A DNA stretch of 62,548 nt, counting the filler, from Kipferlia bialata (lineage: Eukaryota), in NCBI GenBank assembly GCA_003568945.1. It is 4 parts of 4 records of this genome, joined end to end, with 100 filler letters (N's around TTAATTAATTAA, not from the genome) between each part and the next. Parts side by side here need not be neighbours in the genome. Positions count along the whole stretch, not along the records: positions 35,223 to 52,709 come from BDIP01000529.1; 3 more parts are not named here. One strand, written 5' to 3'. Below are positions 12,301 to 62,497 of the stretch, one piece after another (the first letter of the stretch is position 1; each line of letters starts with the position of its first letter). The translations under genes and the position numbers were made by a program. The notes under the pieces are model-generated. The model did not search any database, was not told the origin of the DNA, and saw nothing but the letters and a program-made list of their open reading frames with translations.

Positions 12301-15300
12301 TCAGTGTCCGGGCATATGTCCTGTCCCCTAACACCCACAGGGCGAGCAGTGCCTTACGGGAGTCAATCTGATGTGAGGCAATCAGTGGTAAACACCACAC
12401 ACTCATAAGGCTGCAAAGACGCTGACATATACACTAACGTGTCACCCGTACCAGCCTCAGCAGCTCATTGAACTCAGTGGGACAGTCCAGGTCAAAGCAC
12501 AGCTTCCAGATACGCTGAAGCACCTGTGTTAGATGAGATATATCACATTGACACACATGTATGGCATCCATTTGTAACCATGTGTATACACACCTCCATA
12601 TGGGGCAGACCAGGCACAGGGTGGAGGCGGGTGAACAGCTGACGGTGAGGGAAGGAAGAAGGTCCATTGAGTAGAGATACCACCCATACCTTGCGTGCCC
12701 TGCCGTCCGTGCTCCTCCTGTCCTGGGGAGGAATGACGCAGTCGGAGACCCTGAGGAACCGAAGCCTGGGGGTTGGTATATGCAACATAACCAGACACTG
12801 CCTCACAGTTAATATGATGTCTCAGAAAGCAATGTCTTCTGACCACTACATCGTTTGTCATATACACACCACTGAAGCACTCACCTGCGCCTATCAACTG
12901 CAACGTCACCCAGGTAGTCAGCACACATGGCTACTACCACGTGTCTCTCCTGCTGTAAGGGGAGCGACTCAATGGGGGTATATGTGTATATACATATATC
13001 CAACCACACCTGGCTGGACAGCTGATGGCACTGGATCCTGCGACTTATGATGGTAGTCAGGTCGTGCTCCAGTCTACTGTACACCACGAGGGTATGGGCG
13101 ACCTCACTGGCTATCTCGTAGGCCTCTTCCTTATCCCTTGGGTCAGACAGACCCATAGGCATTGGAAGAGTGTACAGATGGCGAAAACGGAACGACAATT
13201 GCGATGGAGAGGGGGATTCCCACATACCTGTATGCCTCAAACACCTTCTTCCGGTTTCCAAACCCAACACACAGGTCTCTCTTGCACTCCCTAAAGGATC
13301 GGGACAGAATGCGCTTATCAGTGGTGCGGGGCCTATAGTTGATCGACGGAAGAACTCAAGAGTAGAAACCGGTATTACAATGAACGATATACAACTCATA
13401 CTACTCACCAATACATATACAGAAGATGCAGATTCTCGTATAGTGTATGTATATTATACTGTATCAATTACAACCCACCTCCCCCCAATCCTGAGGAAGC
13501 TTCTCTCGTCTGTAAACTGCAGAATACCCTCTAAAAGGGTGTCCAGTGCCTAGGTTAGGTGAATACCAAATGACGACAGGGTACTACGCAGAATGAATGA
13601 CCATAAGTAATCATACCTGGTTGGTGTATGTGACGATGACGATTGGGCCGTTGATCCGCTGTGTTTGGTGACTCCTCAGAAGCATCTCCAGAGTGAGCTT
13701 GGCCGTGTAGGACTTTCCTGGGGGTCAGGGAAGTAGGGGGCTATGCCCTCCATGAACGATGTCATGCACCACTGTCTGTACCCACCTGTGCCTGGCCCGC
13801 CCCTGATGAGGGTCACCGCACAGTTGTGGGTGTGGCGGAGGGCCTTCATCTGGGTTGGGTCGGCACGACACACAAGGCCTCCTGCCACAGGATATGTTCT
13901 GTCCCTGTGGATCCCTTGGCCGACCTCCCCCTCCCAGCCCATGGTCCTGTTCAGAGTCTTGGGGGCAGGGAGAGGCTCACCTGTGGCAGTCGTGAAGAGC
14001 AGAGACACATCGACATCCTCAGACCTGGGGGTAGTGGACATGCATTTACAATGAGGGTCACAGTCAATAGTCCTGAGTACCCGTACCTGACCCACTTCGG
14101 GGTGGGCATCTCATCATCCACTCCGGCCAGCACCCCTCCGAAGGGTAGGTCGTCAGCGTCCTTGGCCATCAGGTTGTGGATGATGGGGAGGTAGGCAGGC
14201 AGAAGAGGTTCGCTGAAGGCCAGCAGCTGTACACTGCCGCCAAGCAGTCTGTCTAGGCTGACCCCTGACACAGAGGGGGTGTCAGTGAGGACCTCCACGA
14301 CTAGACTGTCCCAGCCCTGCCTCTTGCTGGTGGGTCTCGGACCCTTACCCCTGCCACCACCCGAGAACCGACCCCCCTTCGCAAGTACATCATCCATCTG
14401 ACCTGCGGTAAAGGAGCCTATCTAAGGGTTCTCGCATTCACATACACTCACACAAATGGCGCCTACCTAGAGACATCAGGTGGATGGAGGACTCCCACAT
14501 GTCTGCAGAGGCTACAAGGAGCCTGGGGTCATCAAGAAATGAAAGACACCAAGACAATTCCCACACCGTTTGCAAAGCAGACAATAGCAGTGCCTCCCAC
14601 CTTCCGTACTCCAGCGTGACGGGGTTGGAGTCAGCCGGGTGCTCGAAAGTGATGGTAAACTGCACACGGCTCTGCTGCAAATCAGAGTGGATACCCGAGA
14701 ACCTAGCCTTCCTGTGCGTGAATAGGCAATATCATTCAATACAACCTGGTAAGCAAAGTAGCTTCATCAGCCCCCCCCCCCCCACACACACACACCTGAT
14801 GCACATGATGTCCCTGGGGTCTGGCACCTGGTCGTTACTGAAGAAGGCCCGGGCATGGGTGCGGAGGGGCAGGTTGAAATTAGCCCTAATAGTGAGAAGT
14901 CTAAAGAGAAACACCAGAGCTAACACCATAGTGATCGAGCATCTTGTGACGTATAGTATGAACATACCTCTCTAGGGCCGCATATGTGTTCAACTGGGTG
15001 TCTACACTCACATACTGGGCCTCTACAACAGGCTTGTCCCCTTGTCTCTCCCTCGCTAGCTCCTGTCCGAAGCCGCGCAGACTCTGGGGTGAGTGGACAA
15101 CAGCTGACACACACGATATCACAGACACACACCTCTATGGAGTCCAGAGCTGCCACTTCGTTCCTGGGGACCCCTGAGTAGGTGCCTGAGTAAGATGGAC
15201 AATGGGACTACGAGACAACTCCCACATCACTGCGATTACCCACCTATTCCCGGCTCTCCCTCCTCCACCCGCTCAGCCTGTTCGGCCTCGAGCTCCTTGC

Positions 15301-16501
15301 GCCTGAGGGTGAATAGATGATGGGGGGTCTGACAAATAGAACCACTAAACCTCTCCCTCTAACCTCTTTGCCTCCTCCTGGAGCTTTGCCAATATATCCT
15401 GGACCATTCCGGTATACCCTGGGACCCACATTGTGGCCATCGTGAGAAATGGCTGGTAGGAGAAATGGAGTGAACGAGAACCAAAGACACCTCATCGTAG
15501 AGAGGACAGAACTGAACAAGTAGAAACAATCCCCTGTACCTGCTTGATAGCGATTCCTGCTCCACAGAGTGCAATTGCTCTGTTGAGCAGCTCGATCACA
15601 GACATGACATCCTTCTCAGGAAACAAGGACCTGACATAAGGAGCCAAACAAATGTCAAGTCAGTTGAGACGTGCCCTACCTCCCAGACAGGACATCCTCA
15701 ATGTGGGGACGGGAGAACAGGGCATGGGTCTCGGTCAGACATCTGATCATATTGGCACCTATATCAGTAAAGGGGGTATAGAAGCGAAGGTATACCAAAG
15801 CGTTGAACATGTATCGAGTAGAATGTACAATATGTGAAGAGAAATACTGTACCTATGGTCTCATCTGGACACCTACACAGCAACAGGCACCGCTCCCTCC
15901 TACAGTGAGAGACAGCCAACAATCAACCACGCCATAGGATTCAGAGAACGAGTTGACTGTGACACACATAATGTGGCAGAAGTATATATGTTCCAACCTG
16001 AGTAGACACTGCTTTGAAAGGGGCGCTGAGAAAGCAATGGCATATGCCAGCTTGATGGAGAGCTTGTTTTCCTCTTGGAAGTGGTCAGGCTGGCAGTGAG
16101 GAGGGGCTATTCAAAGAAGCATTGGGAGAGGTCATTGGCACAAGCATTCTCACCCGGAGACTGGCGTGCTCGAACACAGTGTCTATCTCATCTTCCGAGA
16201 CACGCTCCGGCTTGTGTCCCTGGGAGTCGGTGGGTCTGTCCCTGCCTGTGGTGAGATAGACCTGCAGTGCACTCAATCCAAAATAGAATCAGCACTAGCC
16301 TTGGTCCTTTGAAGCCTGCCCACCCCCTTGGCCTCTCCCCTGCCCTCCCTGTCCTCTCTCTCTCTCTCTTCTCTTCCCTCCGCGGCCCTTCCCTCCAATA
16401 TCACCACTATCATTCCTCTTGCCAGAGCCGCGTCTCCCTCCCTTCCCTCTTCCACCTCCTCCTCCCTTCTTTGGTGGGCCTCCACCACCAGTCTTCGTCA
16501 T
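9301..16501 (-). CDS. ZNFX1/Hrr1-like UPF1-family SF1 RNA helicase with C-terminal NF-X1-type zinc fingers; many short introns; 3' end unresolved
   Basis: Helicase motifs: LIRGGPGTGKS (I), VTYTNQALD (Ia), VEEAGE (II), LIGDEQQLRP (III), SMFERL, QYRMRPEI, DDYQGQENKVVLVSLCRS, RALVTLSRAK (VI). These are followed by repeated CGHTCPLPCH / LECGHPCPLPC / LPCKHTCTGTC / LGCGHICGGQC fingers. The start (ATG 16501, Gly/Arg-rich first exon) is tentative. Confidence 0.88.
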
Positions 16502-18397: not shown

Positions 18398-18942
18398 GTA
18401 CGGACCCTCTGACTACAAGACCCCCTTTGACTTTGTCAACGATGTCATTGAGTCACATGGGGAGACGGAGTCATTTATGGCGGTCAACCTCACAGCGGTG
18501 AAGGTATGACATATGCATGCATGCAGTATATTTGGATATATTGGATATTATAGAGGTATGCCATATGCATGCCACTCAGAGATGATCCACCCCCCCCTCT
18601 CACCCCCCAGCACCAGGTTGCCCAATATATATACTTGGAGTGGCATGTAATCTTCTCTGTACACATTCCCACTATCATTCTCTATGATGTCTGGTATGCG
18701 CACTTTCCCCCCAGAACCAGGTTGCCCATTGAAGGTAGTATATGTAGTATATATATGGATANNNNNNNNNNNNNNNNNNNNNNNNNNNNNNNNNNNNNNN
18801 NNNNNNNNNNNNNNNATATAGTATACTATGATCCACCCCTCCCTCTCACCCCCCAGAACCAGGTTGCCCAGTGGAGACGGGAGCTGCCGATGGTGGATCC
18901 CTACTATGCTGTCAAGTGCAACCCAAACCCAGGTATATATAT

Positions 18943-18991
<49 letters not shown>

Positions 18992-21900
18992 TAGATAGTC
19001 ATCAGTGATTACTATGCTGTCAAGTGCAACCCCAACCCAGGTACCTAATAGATGTGTACTATAATCAATACAACATATATCAATACATATAGATCTATAT
19101 ATAAATATATATGTGTGTGTGTATATTTAGACACTCACCCAGCCATCATCAAGACCCTCGCTGCCCTAGGGGTGGGGTTCGACTGTGCTACCATGGGGTA
19201 TGTGACTCCCCCCCTCCCCCTCCCTCTCCCTCTCTCTCTCTCTTCCTCTCTGGGTTAATTGTTGTATATGTCCCTCGCTGTGGGTATCATTTCTTTCTTC
19301 CCTCTCACCCCCCAGTGAGATCTCCACCATTATCGACATGAGACAGGGGCACAAGAAGGTACATTGTATTTGAGTGTTCACTCCATTGCTAAATACCTCT
19401 CTCTCTCTCCCCCCTCAGGCATTGTCAAGACAGTCTGTCTCTCTCTCTCTCCCTCCCTTCCTCCCTCTACCCGCTCCCTCCCTCCCACCCCCAGGTCATT
19501 GTCAAGACAGGCCACCCCCACCAGCCACAGACACTGTACGTCACCCACATGTATATTTACACCCATATATATATCTGTCTCTCTGTCACCCTATCCCTAT
19601 ATAATACCCCCAAGTGATGTCACACTGTACGTCACTACTATCTTTCTCTCTCATTCACCGTCCCATCTCCCTTTACTATCTGCCCCCTCACCCCCTACTG
19701 ACGTCCCTCGAGTTTACACACCATATTCTATCTCTTTGTATCCTCTTCGACACCTCATCTCTAGTGACGCCCCTGTGGCAGGGTGGCCAGAGGCATACCT
19801 CCTATATCGATAAGTATACGTACTATATACTATTTACTATTTACTATATACTATATATATCTATTCATATGTAACCCCTAGCGATGCCCCCCTCGATGTG
19901 GCAGGGTGGCCAGAGGCATACCCCAAGATAGTGTATGCACACCCAGCAAAGATGGTCCCACACCTCATGTGCGTCCATAAATCTCTCTCTCTCTCTCTGT
20001 AATTCCTTCTCTCCCGCTCTCTGGATATTATTGGATACCTATATATATATATATGAGGATACATACCCTAATTACCAGGTATGCCCGGGACAACAACGTC
20101 AACCTGACAGTCTTCGATGGAGAGGTAGGCATCACTGGTGTATATATAGATATTATACTGTTGTGTATGTTTCTAATTACGCCCTTTCCCCTATCACCCA
20201 GGACGAGCTGGACAGGTTGGCAGCCTTTAGTAGTATACATATATTGTTACTAGGCCTAGTAGTATATCTAACCCCCAGGACGAGCTGCACAAGATGGCAG
20301 CCATCCCAGACCAGCAGTACCAACTGCTGATGAGACTGACCACAGACGATGCATCATCACTCTGCCAGTTCAGTGCTAAGGTATAGATGTATCAAACCAA
20401 ACACACACACACATATACATATATATATATATATTTACCGACACATAATACACAACTTCATCTCTCTGCCAGTTCAGTGCTAAGGTGGGTAGATATATAC
20501 ATTAGTACGCATGATAGTACATGCAAATTCACACTCTTGCACGTTTGGTAATAGATTTTTATTTTTACACTGAGACATAGTTCTATTTACATAGTACTGG
20601 TTCTGACCCCAGTTTGGCGCCGATGTTGACCAGGCCCCCCACCTGCTCTCCGTAGCCAAGGAACTCGGCCTCAAGGTACACACACTAATACAAATACACT
20701 AATACATACTCTGTTGTACTGTATACATAGTTATAGTGTACATGATACTGTATCTACATACATGTGCCAAGGACCTCGGCCTCAAGGTGTGCTCACAAAC
20801 ACATACCACATGCTGTATATACTCTAGTTGTGTAATAGGATGCTATTACCGGACAATGACCACACTCATCCCCCAGGTCGTGGGTGTCTCCTTCCATGTC
20901 GGATCCAACTGTGGGGATCCAGGTGGGGTGATCATATATATATACCTATACAGTATATGCCACACATGTATATAGTATATATATATTGTATCTACTTGTC
21001 GGATATATCTGTGGGGACCCGGGTTGGTGGTATATACAGTATGTATAGTACCGAAATCATATAGAGTAGCGTGAGGCCGTGTACCCTTCATGTGAATGTT
21101 TCTGACCCCCCAGGTGCCTACCAGACATCCCTGGACCATGCCGCCAGGGTGTTCAGGGCAGCGAAGGTATATAGATATATATATATACATATATATACAT
21201 ATAGGTCTCTCTCTCTCTCTATCTCTTTGTCTCTGGACCATGCCGCCAGGGTGTTCAAGGCAGCCGAGGTATGTATACGTGTATATATATATATACATTC
21301 ATATATATAGGTCTCTCTCTCTCTCTATCTCTTTGTCTCTGGACCATGCTGCCAGGGTGTTCAGGGCAGCGGAGGTATGTATACGTGTATGTAAATATGT
21401 GTCTTTCTCTCTCTCTCTCTCATAGTATCTCACACTCTAGGACCCAGGCCTCCCACCTGTCTCCATCGTCGACATCAGTCTCTCTCTATATATATGTATA
21501 TATATTAATAGTATTATATATATACATACCTCTCACCCAGGACCTAGGCCTCCCACCCCTCTCCATCGTTGACATTGGGGGTGGCTTCCCTGGTGACCAC
21601 TCTGGCAAGTGGGGACCTCTGCCCACATTCAGTCACATCGCATCAACAGTCAGGTGTTTGCCAGCGTCTCTCCCTCTCTCTCACGCTATCAAGTATTTCA
21701 CCAAACCACGTCGATCTTTAGAAGTATGTGTTATCCTCACCTGACCTCCAGATCTGCCATCTCCCACTTCTGCACCTCACTCGATGTCACCCCTGCTTTT
21801 GTCCACACACCTACTAGTGGGGCAGCACCAGAGGCAGAGGGACGCCAGGTACATATATATATGTATATGTATATATACGTGTGTAGGTATTTGAATATGT

Positions 21901-23433
21901 ACGGTCTTTCTAATTCATCCTGGTTAGGTTCATTGCTCAGTGGTTCTTTGAGCCTTTCTACGTAATGTGGATAATCTCTTTGATCACCAAAGTCAGGTTC
22001 ATTCCCATATATACTCTCTCTCTCTCTCTCTCTATGTATTTAACCTCTAGGTCAGGTTCATTGCTGAGCCCGGCAGATACATGGTGTCAGCATCCACAGT
22101 CGTGGCCACACAGGTGCATTCACATATAGTATATGTATACACATTCACCGACATCTATATGTACACTATCTATCGCCCTCTGACCCCCCAGGTCTATGCC
22201 AGGAAGAGACTGAATGTGTACATTCACACATACTATTCATACTCATATGTCTATCTTACTGACACTGACACTGATATTGAGACTGACATCAGGTCTATGC
22301 CAGGAAGAGACTGGATGTGGGCACAGACCAAGAGTCACAGGTACACTGATACAGAGCATATGTATACATATCTATATATACATACTGATAGATGTGTATG
22401 GTGTGTGTATATCTATATGAGCTATGTTGTGGACACAGACCAAGAGTCACAGGTACACTGTGACTCTGTGACTGTGACAGGTACAGAACATATATAATAT
22501 TGTATACATATGATTGGATAACGTATCTATGTGTTTGTATACATACTCAGAGCTAAGTTGTGGGCAAATACCAAGATTCACAGGTATGACAGTGTTGATC
22601 ATATACATGGTCATATATATACATATAGAGACTCATCCGTATACATATACTCACTCTAAGGCCCTGTACACCGACGACGGGTGCTACGGTTCCTTTAACA
22701 ATGTGCTGCTGGATGAGCCCTACAGACCTGTGCCCCTGAGACTCAAGACCCTCATGGGGGGGAAGCCCAACAAGGTAATACTGTTGTGTGTATACTGGAG
22801 AGTACTTAGTGGTATCAAAACTCTTGTGAAGTCTCCTTCTTATCCCCAGGCCGTGGCCACCTCCATCTTCTCTCTCTCTCTAACTCTAGGCTGTAGCCAC
22901 GTACCTCTTCTCTACCCCGCTTCCTCTCCTCTTATTATATTGTCCTCTATATATGTATCCTTCTAACTCCAGGCAGTAGCCACCTCCATCTTTGGCCCCA
23001 CCTGTGATGGCATCCATCTTCACTCTCTCTGTCTGTCATTCTCTCTCTCTCTCTCTCTAACTCCAGGCCGTGGCCACCTCCATCTTCGGCCCCACCTGTG
23101 ACGGCATCGATGTCATGTGCAAGGCGGGGGAGACACAGTTCGAGAGATGCGAGGTATGCACTATGACAGTATACTACCTCTCTCTCTCTCTCCCTCCCTG
23201 CCTCTCTCTTTTCACTCACCCCTAGGTTGGCGACTGGCTGGTCTTTGAGCACATGGGGGCATACACGGTGAGTGGTACTATACACTGTACACAGTATGTG
23301 AATTCCGTATATCGTGTGGCACCACTGGTGAATCTGCGACTTGCCTTTCTGCCTAACCCTCCAGCACACTGCGTCCTTTGTGTTCAATGGCTACACCCAC
23401 ATCCCTGCCCACCTGCACTATGTGCTAGAGTGA
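18398..23433 (+). CDS. ODC1: Ornithine decarboxylase (group IV PLP-dependent decarboxylase), about 20 exons; probable extra 5' exons at ~17665-17755 and ~18171-18248
   Basis: Spliced motifs: PYYAVKCNPNP (PLP lysine), GVGFDCAT, KIVYAHPAK, SAKFGA, VGVSFHVGS, DIGGGFPG, FIAEPGRY, DDGCYGSFN, SIFGPTCDGID, GDWLVFEHMGAYT, FNGY. Stop TGA at 23431-23433. Confidence 0.95.
18762..18815. other. Scaffold gap inside an ODC intron
   Basis: N-run without the linker. Confidence 0.9.
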
Positions 23434-44415: not shown

Positions 44416-45882
44416 TGGCATTGAGGGCTGGAATAGGGGTGTAGAGAGAGAGACACACACACACAACGGATATCTAGGCATATACCTCGTACTGCCTTGG
44501 GAACACAACCTCGTGGGGCTCGCACCTGGACGTCAATACACAAATTTATGAATATGTGTGACAGGCGCCTCAACAGTGTTGGTGAGTCTACACAAATATA
44601 TGTATTCATGCATACCTCTGCCTAGTTGCCAGCATCACCCTTGCGCGCTCTCTCTCTATATATTTATATACACACACATATATATATATACATATATATG
44701 GTTTCATACCTCTGTCTAGTAGCCAGCATCACCCTTGCACTCTCAATCTGGGCCTGGCGGTTCTGGGGGTGAGAGGCATATACGATATACATATACTATA
44801 TATGTATATACATGGTGTATTCATATATGCAATACCTACCGCCTCTGTGTCATCCTCCTCTTGACAGTGGTATTAGTGTGTATAACTTATATACTCCAAA
44901 AGATACAATAACCACTCTATATTATACATCCTCTTAATGAACTATAGAGTGTACCTGCCGCCCCTGTGTGTTCCTTCTCTTGCATACACGTGTAGTATAT
45001 ATAGCTACACAGAAAATACATTATACAAACACTGAAAATACATTATACAAAGTATATGACTTCGAGTACAGTACCTGCCGCCTCTGAGTGTTCCTTCTCT
45101 TGACAATGGCATTGACATCCTCATAGAAGCCCTGGAATTAGGATATATGATATATATACACATATGAATACAATACTAATATAACTATATCAGTGTAGTG
45201 TGGTATTGACATCCTCATAGAAGCCCTGGCATAAGAGAGCAGTTAAAACAGGTATATATAGATGAATAGATACACCCATACATGTCTCATGTCTGGGTCC
45301 TGCCTCAGTCTACTTTCAAAAATATATACGCCTATACATGTATACACATGTATATTTACACACATATATTCACTTCATAAACACATACACCCACCTGTCT
45401 CATGTCTGGGTCCTGTCTCTGTATAATCATACTCATATACAAATACATACAGTCATGCATATAAGAAGTTGCAAATAGTATTAACCTCCATACCTGTCTC
45501 ATGTCTGGGTCCTGTCTGAGTCTCTCCATGCGCCTGAGGGGTCAGAGACACAGAAGAATCAAACTATTAAGGAAAGAGAAATGGTACCCAATACCCAATA
45601 CAAAATTAATCCGTACCTAGCACGAGGGGTCAGAATAATATGCACAGATACATAAGAAATAGAGAATGGACCACCAATTAAATTAGACACAGCTAATCCT
45701 TATGTACCTAGCTGTCTGCACCCTCACTGGCACATTCTGCCATATGCAGCATATCACTGCATTCATTGAATACTTCTATATTATAAATAGACTAAGTGTA
45801 TACTATAGTACACACCTAGCTGTCTGTACTCTGACTGGCACATTCTGCCTGGCACATTCTATATGTATACTCTACACCATAA

Positions 45883-45913
<31 letters not shown>

Positions 45914-47014
45914 CTATATTGAGTATACAACTCCTCAATAGTGTATACCTCGCTGTCTGTACTCTCACTGGCACGTTCTGCCTAGGACACTATACCCATA
46001 AGTATACCATTATATATACATATATACCTATATGAATGTATTCCTTATATTCCTTATATAAATATGCATGAATACTAATGCAAATATGTACCTCGCTGTC
46101 TGCACCCTGACTGGCACGTTCTGCCTTGCGTCCTGGCTGGCTGTACTGGTCTGCTGGGCAGTGACAGTGTCCTGGTTGCCTAGGGAGACAAGGCCTGGAT
46201 GTAAAGAGAGCTGTAAGTGTTTACACTGGCAGCCTTACTTCTAACTACAAAATCATAAGTACAATTTTTCCCAACTTACCCTGTTTGCTTGATTTCTTCC
46301 TCATCTTGGGCTGCTGGGTCTCCTCCCTGAGGATCTCCTGGAGAGTAAGACATATATTGAATACACTGCTGTATGAATGCAGTATATATATATATATCTA
46401 TCAGAGATATAGTTATACGCTGAAGAATGTTAGGCCTCCTCGAAGAATTTCCAGATATCACTAGACAAGGTATTTAGGTTTCATTCATACGTGCGAGGAT
46501 ACAACATATACAATAATGTTACAATATATGTACCGTATCCACACGTACATTGTCTGGCTTCTTCTCCGGCCCCTCCCCATTGGCCAGCATCAGGACTACT
46601 CTCTCTCCCTCTCTCTCTCTCTCTCTATATATATACTTATACGTCAACACTATGTCATATGTACTCACGTTGTCAGGCTTCTTCTCTGGTCCCTCCCCAT
46701 TGGCCAGCATCATGGCAGTGCGGATACGCTGCATGGTGTCCTAATAGGGTTAGCTAGAGACAATTGACTATTGAAGATTCATGTCAATTCTCAATATATA
46801 TATATATCCTTACCTTCATCTGCGTGTCAATGTCCATCCCGACCTCCCCCTCCTCCTGGGCACCTGTGACACTGGAGGCAGCAGAGGCAGAAGTACCCTG
46901 AGGATTAGTTATGGTATTAATACTCTTTTCTCTCTCTATGTATACATATACATAGAGAGAGCGAGGGAGAGTCACACTGGAGGCAGCTGAGGCAGAGGTG
47001 CCCTATGGGTAAGG

Positions 47015-47061
<47 letters not shown>

Positions 47062-48296
47062 CTTGTCACACTCGAGGCAGCAGAGGCAGAGGTGCCCTGA
47101 ATATAAGACAGATGGAGAGAGAGTAAGAGAGAAGAGGAGAGAATAGTACTGTCAAACTGCAGCTATAAATATGTACCATAAACTTTGACCCACCCGCCCT
47201 GTCAATGTGTGGAAGAATGTATAGGGTATACACATAATACATATTTACAAAATCTACTACTACGACATTACACTATAGGCACCATAACCAATACCTCCAT
47301 ATACGACCAGTGATAGTGTGTCTATGTATGTCATATATATCCAGCATACCTGCCCTGTCAATGTGTGGAAGAAGGCATCCGGGTATGCATCTGCCAGGAT
47401 ACTGCCAGTGGCCCTGATATAAGGGTGTAGATAGAGGGTGGGAGAGAGAGGCAGTAGGAAAGGGGGTGGGGGTCGGATTGAGGTGAGAGAGTAGACAAGA
47501 CCCATTAGCTTAATACACTAGTAGAGGACATCAATGACTCCATTAGCTACTGGATAACGCAAAGTAAAAGAGGGATTATGCACAGCTATGGAGCAAGAGA
47601 GGAGATAATAATGGGGGAGGGGGAGGTGGAAAGAGAGAGAGAGAGGGAGAGAATGGACATTACCTCGCCTGTGCCGGCCCGTGCTGGTTCTTGTCTGCAT
47701 ATCTCTCGACAAAGGTCTCAAACCTAGGGTAAGAGCCAGAGAATACATATATGAAGGGTAGCTACTTGTTCCAGGGGTAGTTGGAGAGAGAGAGTTTAAT
47801 AGAGTGAGACACCTCACAATACATACGGTAACACCACTACTACGAGACTACATATGAGGAATGGGGGTGGGGAGTAGCCCATGGGAGAGAGAGAGAGACA
47901 GAGACTGTGTTCAGTCCAATTCAACTGAAGCACCCATCTTTCTCTCTCTCTCTTCAGTTCTCTCTCTCTCTCTTCAGTTCACCACAATGATATACAATAC
48001 AGTATATCACCACAGCTTGTCCGGCCCTCCACCAGTATATTCATGTGAGAATATGAGTGATAAAGTAGGGATGTAGTGCAACATGTCTATACAATACCCC
48101 CTCTCTGGTCAGGTGGATGTCACTGACCCATGCCTATACACTCTACCATATCACATACTATACATTCACTCTATGTACACACTATAAATACTCCTGTATG
48201 CCCATACCTCACTGAGTCATGGGTCAGGTTGATGTTCCTGTACAGCATGTTGTAGCTCTCAGTGCTATGCTTCATGCGGTGCTGGTCATCACCCAT
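40910..48296 (-). CDS. Large multi-exon hypothetical protein (possibly two genes); weak GAF-like segment
   Basis: ATG at 48296 (MGDDQHRMKHSTESYNML). Many small in-phase exons (e.g. QNVPVRVQTAR|RMERLRQDPDMRQ|GFYEDVNAIVKREE) and long open exons 43286-43800, 42012-43019 and 40910-41500. SARVLRADSVSVYL only loosely resembles a GAF domain. Confidence 0.55.
45705..46125 (-). repeat. Four copies of the exon end encoding QNVPVRVQTAR, each with a GT donor
   Basis: Copies at ~46092-46123 (real exon), 45949-45980, 45816-45847 and 45708-45739. Confidence 0.92.
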
Positions 48297-55370: not shown

Positions 55371-55674
55371 CTGTTATGCCTGTCACAGAGTGTGTCACTG
55401 ACAGTGTCAGTTGTTATCACTATATTTTTCAATTGGGGTTTAGGAATCGTCTCGGAATACACTGTATACTATCTCTCTCCTCTCTGTCCCCTAGGAACAT
55501 GACAGGTACGAGGAATGTTGCCACTGGGTGTATGGTGACTGGTGGAGTGTATTTTCGTGGTGTTTACTGACTATTGCTTCCAGCCGTGCCTTTGTATATC
55601 ACATATTGTACATCACCTATTGTACATCGCCTATTATTAGTAGCAGACTGGAACCCACTCTCACGTCAGGAGGC

Positions 55675-56681
55675 ATGTGGATAGTGCTGTACAGCGTCCT
55701 GTTCCTGCTCCTGGCAGGATTGATGTTCCTGCAGGTCTACTACCTCATATCATTCAAGTGAGTAGCCCTTCGTATACTTAACCATAAGTAGCTGTTTGGT
55801 GTAATGTGTAGATGCTGCTCTGGTTAAGAGCCCTATTCAGGACTTGGGCCCCCCTTTCTCTCAGCTACCCCCCCCCCTCCAACTACACACACCTACCCTC
55901 ACCTCAGCGACCTTGATCACGATCTGATCAATAGCATCGAGATCACCAGGAAGCTCAACCCCCTTGTGATGCCAGAGATAATTGCTAGCTTTGTTGGGCA
56001 GGTATGACACTTCGACTCACTTGTCCAGTCTCCTTCTAACACTTCCCGGTTCTCTGACTCATTTCAGGCCATGTTTCTCTTCACAGGCAACTGGCTAGGG
56101 TTCCTACTCATGATACCTGCCAGTGTGATCAACAGCCGCAGAATGCAGCTCAGACAGGTGTGTTCTCCATTGTACTCGACCAGTGTTGTAGTGGTTGGAT
56201 GCATTAATCCACTGCTTGTCCAGTCTACTTAATTGTGAGAATGAATGCCGCAGTGGAAGGATACAACAATAATGAGTATATTGTGTTCTATTTCGGAAGC
56301 CGCATGCATTCTTTGTATGGTACGTACCTGTTCTAGAGTTCTGCTTACCCCAGACCAAATTGGACTCCACTAACATCTTTGTCGTACTTCCCAGAGAGAC
56401 CCGTGTAGCTATCATTAAGGTACGTCCTTCCTTGTAGTGACAGTGTTGTAAGATGTATAAGTGATATATGATATATACAGATGGTGTTGGGCTTCTTTAG
56501 TGTTCCCTTTTCTCTTCGCTGGTACTATGCCCTGTCTAGATATTAAATGATTACTATTGGATATTCCCCGCCTGACCCTCAGCTTCTGAACTTCGTCGTG
56601 GTCTGGGTATATGTGATTGTAAAGCTCGTGATGGCGCTGGTAAAGAGTCTTTCAAAGGGTCGGTACGGACGTTTCCGGTAG
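55675..56681 (+). CDS. Cornichon / Erv14 ER cargo receptor, 5 exons
   Basis: QVYYLISFN|DLDHDLINSIEITRKLNPLVMPE...FLFTGNWLGFLLMIP...LDSTNIF...IKLLNFVVVW matches cornichon (DLExDxxNP, LNxxvxPE, DxTxIF). Confidence 0.9.
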
Positions 56682-57331: not shown

Positions 57332-57700
57332 CAACTACCTTAAGATATCCAACGTTGCCAGAGTACTCTGATTGAGTCTGTGTCAATCTCCATTACCATC
57401 CCTCTCTTACACCCATCTTAGCCACGTCAGTGTCTTCTAAAGGTTTACATTACATATCCTGTCTGCCAACACACTCAATATCAAACTCAATTAACCGAGA
57501 TACTGCCTAACACAGCCAATGTACTGTCTGTGAGTTAAGCCAACGCAATCAGTATAGAGGGTAATATACAATGATACTGAGTCATACCTCCATATTACTA
57601 TAGCCAATGTTCTGTCTATCAGTGCTGCCTTCACTCTCAGGGTCTCAAGATTAACTATATATATTGTAATACTTACAAATACATGTATCCTAACATACAG

Positions 57701-59069
57701 CCAAGATACTCTCTATCAGTGCTGACAACACCCTCAGTGCCACTAGTATACCCTGTCCCATCAAGTATGACAGGATGACACACACATGCCACAGGATAGG
57801 GGGGGAGGTGGGTATCTATGCATATATATACCAGTGACATAATGGAGTACTATCTCTTTCATTATATGTGTTGATTTCATGTAAATTACCATTATACTTC
57901 CACCAGGTATTTGTTCTTGTCTCCCAAGTCACTGTCCTGTACGATAGCATAGGTCCCATAGAGCTGTACTCATGGAGCATAGACACTAGGTGCACATATC
58001 ATACTATATTGTATTGTTTATATATATATATATATATATGAATATTTATGGTTATACAATAGAGCTGTACTCATGGAGCATAGACACAAGGGAAGTAATC
58101 TCTTATATGATTTGCCACATGTATATGTATTCATACATACGGTGTTAATTCATTATATTGAGGCTATATTACAGTATATACATGTATATATATACAATAG
58201 AGCTATACTCAAGGATCATAGACACAAGGGAAGTCGCAACTACCAATAGTGTATCATAATACCAGTATATATATTCAGGTATATACAAAAGTATATATGG
58301 AGCATATACACGATGTGCACACATAGGTGTCTTTCCTGTATATTGTGCATGTCACACTTACTATCCTAATACTCAGAGAATGGCGTGAGATTCCCCGTAT
58401 GACAGACGATATGGTGCCTGTAATGTGGCCTGAACTGGAGGTATACTTCCTCCCATACTACCTTTTTGAACTACCTATATCCATGACTGTCTCCCCACCT
58501 CCATATTGTTATGTGTTGAGTCCCTTGATGTTTCCGTATACATATACATCCCGCTCACTCTATATACTGACTTTGTATACGACTCTCTCTCTCTCGGTGA
58601 GAGTCTCCCCCTCCCCTGTTCGATATGGGTGTTCATAAGTGTCGTTGTCTGGTATCTGTTCTGTGACGTGACCACAAGTCATGCTGGCACCCTGCCTTTC
58701 TTTCATCTCACATATGTATATATCCATGTGTGGTACCCTTGTGTCCTTGACAGCCTTTTTAGGTGCTGATAACCCCCCCCCTTCTCTCTCTGTCAGGTAC
58801 ATATGTATACATATCCTGTTGGTCTGATGCCCAGTCCTGCTGGCACCCTGCCTTTGTGCTGTCAGATAGACTGTGCATAGTGTGTGCATCGGACGAGGCA
58901 TGCCCAATATATGTACATATATATAGTATTAGTGACATATATGCCCCCTATATGTACATATAGTTATCATTCCGTGATATTGTAAATATGCGTATTCAGC
59001 CTGTCACTTACAGTGTCAGACAGACTGTGCATTATGTGTGCATCGGACGAGGTGTGTTGATATGTACAG

Positions 59070-59104
<35 letters not shown>

Positions 59105-61243
59105 CATATGCATATATATAAAGTATAGTATGTAACATATACTGTCAGACAGACTGTGCATAGTGTGTGCATCAGACGAGGTATAACTTATATGTACATA
59201 TATATAGTAGTAATATATATATAAATATATCTTGATACTGAGCCTGTCACTGACAGGGTCAGACAGGCTGTGCATAGTGTGTGCATCGGATAGAATATTC
59301 GCGCCAGTAAGATGGCGCGAAGGTATGTTGATATGTACACACACACACACACACACATATAAATATATATATATATATCTATATAGTATAGTAGTATGAT
59401 ATATGTAGTGTGTGGCTGTCCGTGCATAGTGTGTGCATCGGATGACCAGTATCAGTATCAGTATCAGTATGAGGTTTGCTGTATTATTGAGTTGACTACA
59501 GATGCAGTGTTATACGATATGCAGTTGGGTACCTCACACTTGCTATTTCTGTATCAATCATATCGTGCCTAAAGTGCCGAATTCCATGTCCTCTTTATCT
59601 GTTTAATAGAACTTATGCACATGTATTTCACTGTCTTGCTCACTCACTCGGTACTCCGTGTAGTATAATATATATATTATAGATAAATAGTATAATATAT
59701 TTATTATAGATAAATAGTATAATATATAGTATAATTAATATACCTTGTACCTATTTGTCTGTATACATTGTCTCACTCCAGTTTTCCCCCTATGGTGGCC
59801 ATCTATGGGTCTATGATCCCCAGAGTCAGGCATGGGCTGAGGTGGATGCATGTCCACCCGACTTCAGCACATTGCCTGCACACGCAACAGTTGGTGATAA
59901 GGTAAGCATATAGACTGCAGTATTGTGTTGCTATACATTGATATGTATATATATTGCATTCTCTGCACATACAGCAATTGGTGACAAGGTACTAGTATCA
60001 AGAAACATGTAGTTCTCATTGCCAGAGTGTCTGTGGTTTTATGAGTGACTACATACCTGGTGAATATTGCTATAACTAACAGTTACTGTGGTTGTATGAA
60101 TGACTTCGGCACTGGGAGTATTATTTCAATATAGTATCTATGATTATATGTGTTCTGACCTAGACCCACTTTGTGGACCGGACTACCATGGAATACCACA
60201 CCCTGGCCCTACACAATGGAAACGATGGTGTACTAGAGGGTACCTGGATAGAGGAGGAACCAATCAGCGGGTATATATGGGAATAGTAGTGCCGGAACAT
60301 TTATGTCCTCGTACAGTCCATCTATCCACTATTATGAGAAAACATCTGTACTTCTATATAAGACTCTCATACTAGTGTTGTGGGAGACTTCTCTGCATGC
60401 ATGGCAGTCGGTCAGCACATGGTGTTCATAGGGGAGAGGGACGGATATAGTGAGGTATCGAGTATTTGTTCATTGTATGCATTGACCAGTGTACCTTGGG
60501 GTGCTATGTGTTGTGTTGATACCTACTCTCTCTTCCACATTTCTTCTCCATCCTTCTTCTGTACACTATTCATACGACGTGTCTACCATTCAGATTTGTC
60601 TCTTGGGCACTTTCTCCGTTACGTTGTAGGCTTTAGAAGCCATAGTATTCTCTACTGATATATTGTTGCATATGATGTCCTCATAACAGATGTGCTCTCT
60701 AGACACTGTCTCCGTTACGTTATACTGTTTAAGATATAGTGTGTACTATATGATCAGTGTTTCGGCTATAGTATATGATGTCCTCATACCAGATGTGTTC
60801 CTTGGACACTGTCTCTAGTACCCTGCAGGAGTGGCCTCATATTGAGGATGGGATAGACGTGGAGTGTGGAGGTACCGACTTTACCATATCACAATATGTC
60901 ATGTATACACTCACCCCAGTTGTGTGCCCTGTTGACCTCCTCACCCACAGCTTTGCAATACCAAATGACTGATATCACAAGTATATTGGCTGGTACATAT
61001 GTACATCTCAATTCTTCGTCTCACCCTGACCCACCTGTACCATACCATTTTACCATACCATTATACCATACTAGATGAATGAGAAGTATATATGGGCCAC
61101 AATGCATCTACATCTTTCTACTTTACGTCTCACTCCCAGTTGTGTACACTGTTGACCCCCTGACCCATCTGTACCAGAGTGCACACATGGCAGAGCAGGG
61201 ACACGCATACGTGTTACGCTTTACCCTAAGGGAGTGTGAGTAA
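57701..61243 (+). CDS. Kelch-like beta-propeller protein; 5' end not found
   Basis: Exons LYSWSIDTRE|WREIPRM, SCWHPAFVLSDRLCIV, HLWVYDPQSQAWAEV...HATVGDK|THFV, SACMAVGQHMVFIG, SLDTVSSTLQEW resemble Kelch blades. Stop TAA at 61241-61243. Confidence 0.6.
58835..59445 (+). repeat. Five copies of the exon end (TCAGACAGACTGTGCATAGTGTGTGCATCGGA-like)
   Basis: Direct repeats at ~58862, 59016, 59145, 59259 and 59422 with TA/CA microsatellite spacers. Confidence 0.88.
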
Positions 61244-61660: not shown

Positions 61661-62497
61661 ATGGAATCCAAGCGCCTATATGCAGTGCTACCGTCACCTG
61701 GCAAGGGGAATGGGTGTTTTGCCATAGAGGTTGGCATGGGAGCGGTCCTATTGTGGATATTATAGATCGAGAGGGGGCAACGCTGAGTGAAAGGTCCGTT
61801 CATACTCTGTGGGTAGCTCTATCCATAGCTATCCATGCCTCACTCATGTGGAAGACTGACCATAGGACATCCCCCAGGGTACCTGTGTGCTGAGGGAGGC
61901 ACCCTTCCTACTACTCAAGGTAGAGAACTATCCCTCTCTCTCAAAGCACGAGATCTATATGTCCTGACACACTATAATGAGCCATTGATGGTATTCCTTA
62001 CACCCAGGAGGACTATGGGGACTTTGGAGACATCAGGCGCAAGCTCTACTCAAAGAGGTACAAGGACTCTCTCGCCTTCTAGTGTTCAGACCTTTGTCTC
62101 TCCCTCTCCGTTTCTCTCTCTTTGTGTCTCTCTCACCATAGGAAGAAGGCCAAGCTGGCTGCCTTCTGATATCTCTCTCCCTCTATATATATGTAATGTA
62201 TATATCTCTCTCTCTCTTTGTGTCTCTCTCACCTTAGGAAGAAGAAGGCCAAGCTGGTCATATCTATATGTATGAGAATATGTTTTGTCTCCCTCTCTCT
62301 ATATATAATGTATATATGTATATATGTATGTATATGTCACCCCCAGGAAGAAGAAGGCCAAGCTGTATCTATATATATGTATTGTATATCTCTCTCTCTC
62401 TCTATAAATATATCTGACTCTAGGAAGAAGAAGGCCAAGCTGGCTGCCTTCCGTGCTCTGGCCACTGGACATCCCATAGGGAGGCTGGGCAACAAGG
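61661..62497 (+). CDS. SET-domain protein (Set5/SMYD-like), N-terminal part running off the window
   Basis: MESKRLYAVLPSPGKGNGCFAIE|DIPQGTCVLREAPFLLLK matches the SET N-terminal motif GKGxGxFAxxDIxxGxxxLxExP. Confidence 0.75.

What the first reader, a model, noticed from the sequence alone, without database searches (positions are those of the whole stretch)
45705..46125. Cleanest case: four QNVPVRVQTAR copies with five variable sites, all synonymous and in mosaic combinations
SEEN (minus strand). Exon: CAG AAC GTG CCA GTC AGG GTG CAG ACA GCG AG|GT. Echo 1: AAC..GTG AGA GTA..GCG. Echo 2: AAT..GTC AGA GTA..GCT. Echo 3: AAT..GTG AGG GTG..GCT. All five variable sites are silent third positions, while the flanking intron sequence is not conserved. 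The AAC/AAT and GTC/GTG sites occur in all four combinations. INFERENCE: that pattern needs recombination or conversion between copies (or recurrent mutation), not simple serial duplication. Echoes 1 and 2 also sit after an AG, so each could be a 33-nt frame-preserving cassette.
Basis: partly seen in the sequence, partly recalled or inferred. Interest (0 to 1): 0.85.

Follow-up and report, generated by a model that had tools for sequence, protein, structure and literature searches.

The report
Exon echoes stacked inside protist introns
In several genes of the free-living protist Kipferlia, most introns hold short copies of the neighbouring exon end, splice site included, that the main assembled transcript of the tested gene skips yet that differ from the exon mostly at silent positions, likely because they were captured by recombination from other working versions of the gene, which would make one genome a record of its species' hidden diversity.

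Summary
Observation confirmed. Four copies of a 33-35-nt exon end plus GT lie on the minus strand. All five variable sites are silent, and they give all three possible 2:2 splits. The window encodes a protein named as Kipferlia bialata. A spliced contig uses only the first copy and skips the 558-nt intron holding the other three. The ladder is one case of a gene-wide pattern: 84 echoes in 49 of 68 introns of eight genes, against 0 of 34 in a neighbouring helicase gene. Echo-exon differences are 100 silent to 58 replacement (dN/dS 0.19-0.22). A dead copy of the same allele gives about 0.5. Echo splice sites are as strong as real ones, while flanking intron sequence is near background. Cassette use is not supported: the AGs before echoes 1 and 2 score below all 68 real acceptors, and echoes that cannot be cassettes are equally silent-biased. 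Recurrent mutation rarely gives the mosaic (P<=0.0006). Best reading (inferred): about 110-nt duplications across splice junctions, drawn from or refreshed by divergent working alleles through recombination. No description was found in eight literature searches.

The parts
46092..46194 (-). Working exon (103 nt); its last 33-35 nt are copy 0 of the ladder
   Evidence: contig piece 46091-46193, 0 other letters, depth 61.5; frame
45534..46091 (-). 558-nt GT-AG intron holding all three echoes; 10-11 stops in each frame
   Evidence: joint 45532-46091; stops
45947..45983 (-). Echo 1 + GT; 3 silent differences from the exon; the upstream AG scores -5.1
45814..45853 (-). Echo 2 + GT; 4 silent differences in the shared 34 nt; preceded by a 12-nt partial repeat of itself
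45706..45741 (-). Echo 3 + GT; 3 silent differences; no AG in frame-keeping register
45494..45533 (-). Next working exon (40 nt); its own end is echoed twice in the following intron
45132..45493 (-). Next intron (362 nt) with two donor-type echoes (45418-45395, 45311-45283) and one acceptor-type echo (45225-45201); 45132-45321 is present unchanged in an independent contig
   Evidence: (record 6)
44486..47723 (-). Host gene as modelled (10 exons, family not identified): 13 echoes in 6 of 9 introns
4456..9018 (-). FAM221-like part of P0001: 21 echoes in 10 of 10 introns
18398..23432 (+). Ornithine-decarboxylase-like gene: 18 echoes in 13 of 18 introns
24685..28241 (-). Alpha-galactosidase-like gene: 14 echoes in 8 of 12 introns
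29945..33179 (+). Hydrophobic-protein gene, no Pfam hit on the one exon scanned: 9 echoes in 7 of 11 introns
33937..35103 (-). Endonuclease-I-like gene: 3 echoes in 3 of 5 introns
116..618 (-). RRM gene fragment: 3 echoes in its one modelled intron
61878..62496 (+). Gene fragment with three perfect acceptor-type echoes in 1 of 2 introns
9301..16501 (-). Control: helicase part of P0001, 34 short introns (median 65.5 nt), no echo

Best explanation
The three extra copies are intronic duplicates of an exon end with its splice site, skipped in the main contig, and they were likely captured from, or refreshed by, other working alleles of the gene through recombination. Shown: each echo is 19-45 nt of exon that ends at the splice site and keeps GT or AG. 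Copies recur every ~108 nt. The outermost sites are used in the five echo-bearing introns bridged by RNA. Differences are mostly silent, and the flanks are near background. Inferred mechanism: (1) in these genes the microsatellite-rich introns diverge fast, so alleles match only in the short exons; (2) a break is repaired from a homolog by invasion in an exon, synthesis runs about 110 nt across the junction into the donor's intron, and the end is rejoined without homology, which leaves two alleles' junctions in tandem; (3) the outermost copy stays coding and the other is absorbed into the intron, probably because sites pair across the short exon (exon definition); (4) later mispaired exchange between copies lengthens ladders, reuses the same inner breakpoint and shuffles silent sites, which gives the mosaic. 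The silent bias is thus inherited from selection on working exons, not from translation of echoes.
For: RNA joint skips all three echoes; 12 echoes skipped in 5 bridged introns. 84 echoes in 49 of 68 introns; null 2 of 4300 exon-intron pairs. 100 silent to 58 replacement differences, 41 silent expected; dN/dS 0.19 (CI 0.14-0.26), 0.22 when anchored to the splice site. Simulated dead copies of the same allele give a mean of 0.51-0.55, lowest 0.32 in 160 runs. Differences shared by several echoes: 15 of 15 silent. Differences private to one echo: 20 of 40 silent, p 0.001. GT kept in 38 of 41 and AG in 35 of 39. Echo sites score like real ones (acceptor 8.9 vs 9.0, n 35; donor 6.4 vs 6.9, n 38), and where they differ they lean to consensus (p 2e-5 and 4e-4). 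Identity runs a median 3 nt into the intron, while fourfold sites differ at only 67 of 373. Inner breakpoint identical in 7 of 20 multi-echo ladders, within 4 nt in 11 of 20. One spacer is a chimera of two sibling spacers. Fornicates lack NHEJ and Rad51A and carry two Dmc1 paralogs (PMC8516963 section 8). Dmc1 residues favour exchange with mismatched triplets in yeast tests (PMC6719624 abstract and section 17).
Against: No second allele, strain or paralog was seen, so the donors are inferred, not observed. The model needs allelic introns far more diverged than fourfold sites (about 18%), which is untested. Echo acceptor strength could partly reflect indel-shifted leftover homology, and donor strength could reflect TA/TG-repeat composition. 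Six of 13 perfect echoes have closely matching flanks (identity 0.68-0.96), so some events are same-allele duplications. The four-gamete signal rests on this one ladder and needs switches 3-9 nt apart. The public model P0001 has 8- and 12-residue inserts where my model has echoes; their RNA support is unknown. Splice choice is RNA-checked in one of eight genes only; the other models assume the outermost-site rule, with unbroken phase as their check. Contigs drop minor isoforms.
Confidence: 0.5

Rival explanations
1. Old same-chromosome tandem duplications are kept alike by short gene conversion or collapse between echo and exon. Replacement changes in echoes are purged indirectly because they are harmful when copied into the exon. 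No highly divergent alleles are needed.
For: Sibling spacers are related but diverged (9 of 28 pairs p<=0.05; median identity 0.63 vs 0.53). Breakpoints are reused. 7 of 13 perfect echoes have background flanks. It also predicts mosaics.
Against: It does not by itself explain why echo splice signals stay at full strength while diverging from the real site (20 of 22 acceptors with 6 or more differences still score >=2.5). It needs population size x conversion rate high enough for indirect selection on 20-45-nt homologies.
Confidence: 0.27
2. Echoes are minor alternative exons or exon parts under coding selection (cassettes, alternative sites or recursive splicing).
For: A 33-nt cassette would keep the frame for echoes 1 and 2. 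Echo splice sites are strong. P0001 includes echo-sized inserts at two places. Contigs hide rare isoforms.
Against: The main contig skips them. Echo 1 and 2 acceptors score below all 68 real ones. 66 of 84 echoes cannot be frame-keeping cassettes and have dN/dS 0.23, against 0.20 for the 18 that can. An AG near donor-echo starts occurs in only 16 of 44. Recursive AG|GT sites: 3 of 27 score as acceptors, with no enrichment (p 0.15 and 0.59).
Confidence: 0.08
3. Plain dead tandem duplicates: introns diverge fast by slippage, the silent bias comes from changes in the exon lineage alone, and the mosaic is recurrent mutation in a hand-picked example.
For: The simplest origin. 58-76 replacement changes, including 3 stops, show that echoes decay. 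Introns are microsatellite-rich.
Against: It predicts dN/dS about 0.5, and 0.19-0.22 is observed (p 3e-9; simulation). The mosaic has P<=0.0006.
Confidence: 0.07
4. Assembly artefact: divergent haplotypes were stacked in tandem by a short-read assembler.
For: Each unit looks like a working allele's junction. The species' published draft is a fragmented short-read SPAdes assembly (PMC5874029 section 7). No DNA reads across the focal ladder were available.
Against: An independently assembled 190-nt contig matches 45132-45321 exactly across two echo-spacer junctions of the next intron. Echoes are partial exons joined mid-exon to intron sequence. They decay to stops, reuse breakpoints, and are absent from an adjacent 34-intron gene.
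Confidence: 0.05

Closest known systems
Intron gain by tandem genomic duplication of an AG|GT-bearing exon segment (PMC3443670 and PMC2891723, passages read; PMC4974935, listing only)
   Same: Local duplication of exon sequence hidden by splicing. One candidate here at 8816-8730, where the echo forms the intron's 3' end.
   Different: There the duplication makes a new intron from exon sequence. Here it spans an existing junction and lengthens the intron, recurs in most introns of a gene, forms ladders of up to four copies, and shows coding-like divergence.
Tandem exon duplication with mutually exclusive or cassette splicing (recalled; PMC6071210, listing only)
   Same: Tandem exon-like copies with silent-biased differences and splice sites.
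   Different: Copies are partial exons with one splice site, and the main contig skips them. The silent bias does not depend on cassette potential.
Concerted evolution of tandem repeats by gene conversion and unequal exchange (recalled)
   Same: Mosaic shared sites, chimeric spacer, sharp homology borders.
   Different: Homology blocks are only 19-45 nt, and only one copy is coding.
Tandem duplication by aborted homologous repair finished by alternative end joining (recalled from work on BRCA1 loss and polymerase theta; not read here)
   Same: Head-to-tail duplications with a narrow size range.
   Different: Size about 110 nt, and the template is inferred to be a divergent homolog rather than the sister.
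Introners (PMC9860276, listing only)
   Same: Genome-scale remodelling of introns in a protist.
   Different: No shared mobile intron body with short target duplications was seen. The repeated part is local exon sequence.

Membership tests
Cassette or mutually exclusive duplicated exons | Copies flanked by a working acceptor and donor | tested here: not met
   Echo 1 and 2 acceptors score below all 68 real ones; 66 of 84 echoes cannot be frame-keeping cassettes
Cassette or mutually exclusive duplicated exons | Copies appear in mRNA | tested here: inconclusive
   The main contig skips them, but contigs drop minor isoforms
Ordinary coding tandem repeat | All copies constitutively in mRNA | tested here: not met
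   The joint skips 558 nt; spacers hold stops in all frames
Intron gain by tandem genomic duplication | Intron bounded by two copies of one AG|GT from duplicated exon sequence | tested here: not met
   The focal intron ends at a separate acceptor 172 nt past echo 3; 1 of 84 echoes sits at an intron's 3' end, not RNA-checked
Recursive (ratchet) splicing | AG|GT points with real acceptor strength, enriched | tested here: not met
   3 of 27 score >=2.5; no enrichment. Splicing intermediates not testable here
Concerted evolution by conversion or unequal exchange | Non-tree-like shared sites and chimeric units | tested here: met
   8 of 10 incompatible pairs; simulation; chimeric spacer. One ladder only for site patterns
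Concerted evolution by conversion or unequal exchange | Shared polymorphism between copies in a population | not testable with these tools
   No second strain found and no genome held
Introner elements | Near-identical intron bodies at unrelated sites | tested here: inconclusive
   Unrelated spacers align at background (median 0.53); only one window examined; a shared intron 3' motif was seen by eye

The most novel reading that the evidence does not exclude
Echo ladders are stacks of splice junctions captured from different alleles by exon-anchored, Dmc1-type repair in a hyperdiverse, recombining free-living fornicate. One genome then archives population haplotypes (about 18% apart at fourfold sites, introns unalignable), reveals cryptic homolog exchange, lengthens introns by about 106 nt per event, and forces exon-defined splicing in an organism whose plain introns are about 65 nt.
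Probability: 0.4. Interest if true: 0.9.

Novelty: new variant of a known kind. Interest (0 to 1): 0.75.

Why it matters
K. bialata's 124,912 introns were read as ancestral (PMC5874029, section 12). If the window is typical, many of them are being actively rebuilt by a duplication process not found in the literature searched. Non-coding copies with coding-like divergence would be a within-genome signature of exchange between divergent alleles, which bears on whether free-living fornicates recombine. Full-strength decoy splice sites about 110 nt from the real ones give a natural, large-scale test of exon versus intron definition in a reduced spliceosome (87 of 174 proteins; PMC6679479, passages). 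Echoes may also mislead gene prediction in this genome.

Tried and rejected
No whole genome is held, so the pattern could not be counted genome-wide. The run search listed no holder on record as RNA; the one run, X1, is guessed to be RNA. Zero depth over 45555-46025 is used only because a contig joins across it. A degenerate pattern of the unit found 0 matches in metagenome contigs. P0001 found no related locus there: 21 candidates, none confirmed. The host protein has no identified family: 4 candidates, none at E<=1, and no Pfam hit on the focal exon. A search for shorter FAM221-region relatives scored none of 127 candidates, which is weak evidence on paralogs. CpG decay does not explain the bias: 69 silent to 51 replacement outside CpG context. 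No GC direction at silent sites (42 vs 36). Echo divergence does not track flank identity (rho -0.18, p 0.12). Divergence does not rise with rank in the ladder. Left out of the frame-based counts: echo pairs at 57.6-61.2 kb (no reliable gene model; mismatch phases mixed to suggestive), the terminal repeat at 4348-4493, and uncertain end exons of the galactosidase-like and hydrophobic-protein genes. Earlier findings: three look-ups gave one unrelated note.

Full report
Observation. The columns read CCTT, CGCG, GAAG, GAAG, GGTT for copy 0 and echoes 1-3. Every site is a silent 2:2 split and all three possible splits occur; 8 of 10 site pairs are incompatible and the best tree needs 8 steps. Five of five silent has P 0.0013 under neutrality, before allowing for its choice among 59 ladders. 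The spacers (108, 98, 73 nt) are not more alike than spacers of other genes (p 0.09, 0.77, 0.77).

Organism and RNA. An ORF search returned one protein, P0001, named by its sources as Kipferlia bialata. It maps to the window exon by exon at 100%. Contigs of run X1 (RNA by the tool's guess) give one 1985-nt record at depth 61.5 with seven GT-AG joints in the host gene and no other letters. It uses copy 0 and skips 558 nt holding all three echoes. Over five bridged introns it skips 12 echoes, always using the first donor and the last acceptor. A second record (190 nt, depth 2.3) matches 45132-45321 exactly across two echo-spacer junctions of the next intron. This argues that such junctions exist in raw reads. 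It does not cover the focal ladder, and contigs drop minor isoforms.

The pattern is gene-wide. A frame-free scan gave 114 close repeat pairs. I built exon chains with unbroken phase for eight genes, checked by RNA for one gene, by P0001 for another, and by Pfam hits, mostly below the curated cut-off, for five. 49 of 68 introns hold 84 echoes at a threshold passed by 2 of 4300 unrelated exon-intron pairs. 41 of 44 upstream-exon echoes reach the exon end and 38 of those 41 keep GT; 39 of 40 downstream-exon echoes reach the exon start and 35 of 39 keep AG. Median echo length is 28.5 nt and median period 108.5 nt (10-90%: 77-135). Intron length is about 116 + 106 per echo (r 0.86). The adjacent helicase region has 0 of 34 echo introns; its introns are short (median 65.5 nt) and 3 of 34 carry a dinucleotide run, against 63 of 68 in echo genes. 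Echo pairs at 57.6-61.2 kb and some end exons were left out for lack of a reliable frame.

Coding-like divergence in non-coding copies. Of 158 differences, 105 fall at third positions; 100 are silent and 58 change or stop the codon, against 41 silent expected (89 to 58 without the focal ladder). dN/dS is 0.19 (0.14-0.26), and 0.22 when alignments are forced to the splice site. A dead copy beside a constrained exon of the same lineage should give about 0.5; simulation with the same detection gave 0.51-0.55, lowest 0.32 in 160 runs. All 15 differences shared by several echoes are silent, and private ones are enriched too (20 of 40; p 0.001). The bias is the same in the 66 echoes that cannot be frame-keeping cassettes (0.23) and the 18 that could (0.20), so translation of echoes is not its source. 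Echoes do decay: three changes make stops.

Splice sites and flanks. Identity runs a median 3 nt into the intron, and 40-nt flanks are barely above background (gapped about 0.62 vs 0.57), while fourfold sites differ at 67 of 373. Yet echo splice sites score like real ones, and positions that differ lean to consensus. Caveat: indel-shifted homology or repeat composition may add to this. Sibling spacers are related in 9 of 28 pairs and one is a chimera of two others; inner breakpoints are reused. Six of 13 perfect echoes have closely matching flanks and seven have background flanks, so both same-allele and other events occur. In the RNA-bridged introns, 5 of 9 echo donors and 1 of 3 echo acceptors score at least as well as the site used. 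Choice is therefore positional; exon definition is my inference.

Exchange: supported. Silent-only evolution with local codon use on star, serial or balanced trees gave the observed pattern in at most 0.0006 of five-variable-site cases, and a looser pattern in at most 0.016. The other four 4-copy ladders had too few informative sites to test. Cassettes: not supported; the AGs before echoes 1 and 2 are in register with the exon's own AG and score below all 68 real acceptors. Against my reading, the public model P0001 carries 8- and 12-residue inserts where I place echoes, with unknown RNA support.

Mechanism. Each echo with its flank looks like the junction of an allele that worked until recently. 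The total of neutral change since it went dead is at most about 0.04 per site (pN), while silent sites differ by about 0.19. I therefore favour duplications made or refreshed by exchange with divergent working alleles: invasion in the short exon, about 110 nt of synthesis across the junction, rejoining without homology, then mispaired exchange among copies. Fornicates lack NHEJ and Rad51A, keep two Dmc1 paralogs, and have full, partial or no alternative end joining by lineage (PMC8516963, passages and section 8; K. bialata's own state not checked). Dmc1 residues favour exchange with mismatched triplets in yeast (PMC6719624, abstract and section 17). These are context, not tests. The donors were not observed: no genome, strain or paralog was found. 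The main rival is old same-chromosome duplication with conversion and indirect selection.

Comparison and novelty. The closest described process is intron gain by tandem duplication (PMC3443670 and PMC2891723, passages), which makes new introns rather than stacking partial junctions in old ones. The genome paper (PMC5874029; passages, sections 7 and 12, and a term search of 3 supplementary files) has no occurrence of 'duplicat' in its main text and reads the introns as ancestral. PMC6679479 (passages) treats only the spliceosome. Eight searches listed no paper that describes this pattern by title or abstract start; most listed papers were not opened, subscription journals are largely missing, and preprint supplements were closed. 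Verdict: a real feature and a new variant of known duplication and concerted-evolution processes; interest 0.75.

Noticed in passing
window 9301-16501 and about 55400-56600: The helicase part of P0001 has short introns with no echoes and few microsatellites; a cornichon-like gene (PF03311 hit) shows no pair in the frame-free scan. Two classes of genes seem to exist; what separates them is unexplained.
   Followed up: partly
window 8816-8730 (-): An 87-nt intron, as I model it, ends in a 28-nt echo of the upstream exon end: a candidate intron born by duplication at AG|GT. P0001 has 8 extra residues here; no RNA check.
   Followed up: partly
P0001 residues 1656-1663 and 1704-1715: The public model has inserts where echoes lie (one 8-residue motif occurs twice). 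It also joins the helicase part and the FAM221-like part in one protein, possibly a fusion of two genes by the predictor.
   Followed up: partly
window 4456-4920 (-): Four-copy acceptor ladder in which the last spacer matches one sibling over its first ~52 nt and another over its last 18 nt: a chimeric unit.
   Followed up: yes
window 45612-45636 (-): A remnant inside the focal intron joins 11 nt like the real acceptor region to a short piece like the end of echo 3 with GT; possibly a decayed further unit.
   Followed up: no
window 4348-4493: A 39-nt repeat of the last codons and stop of the FAM221-like part, 107 nt downstream: the same period but not at a modelled splice site.
   Followed up: no
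window 18715-18734 (+): An acceptor echo that ends like the upstream exon and is followed by GT: a 20-nt fused pseudo-exon.
   Followed up: no
many introns, e.g. near 215, 7065, 26700, 31600, 34260, 44440, 47430: Unrelated introns share a 3' motif: a (TC)n run, a short TACACCC-like word, then the acceptor. Seen by eye; a strong splice signal or a common origin.
   Followed up: no
window 57600-61200: Further ladders of up to five copies, one with a possible GC donor on the first copy; no reliable gene model.
   Followed up: partly
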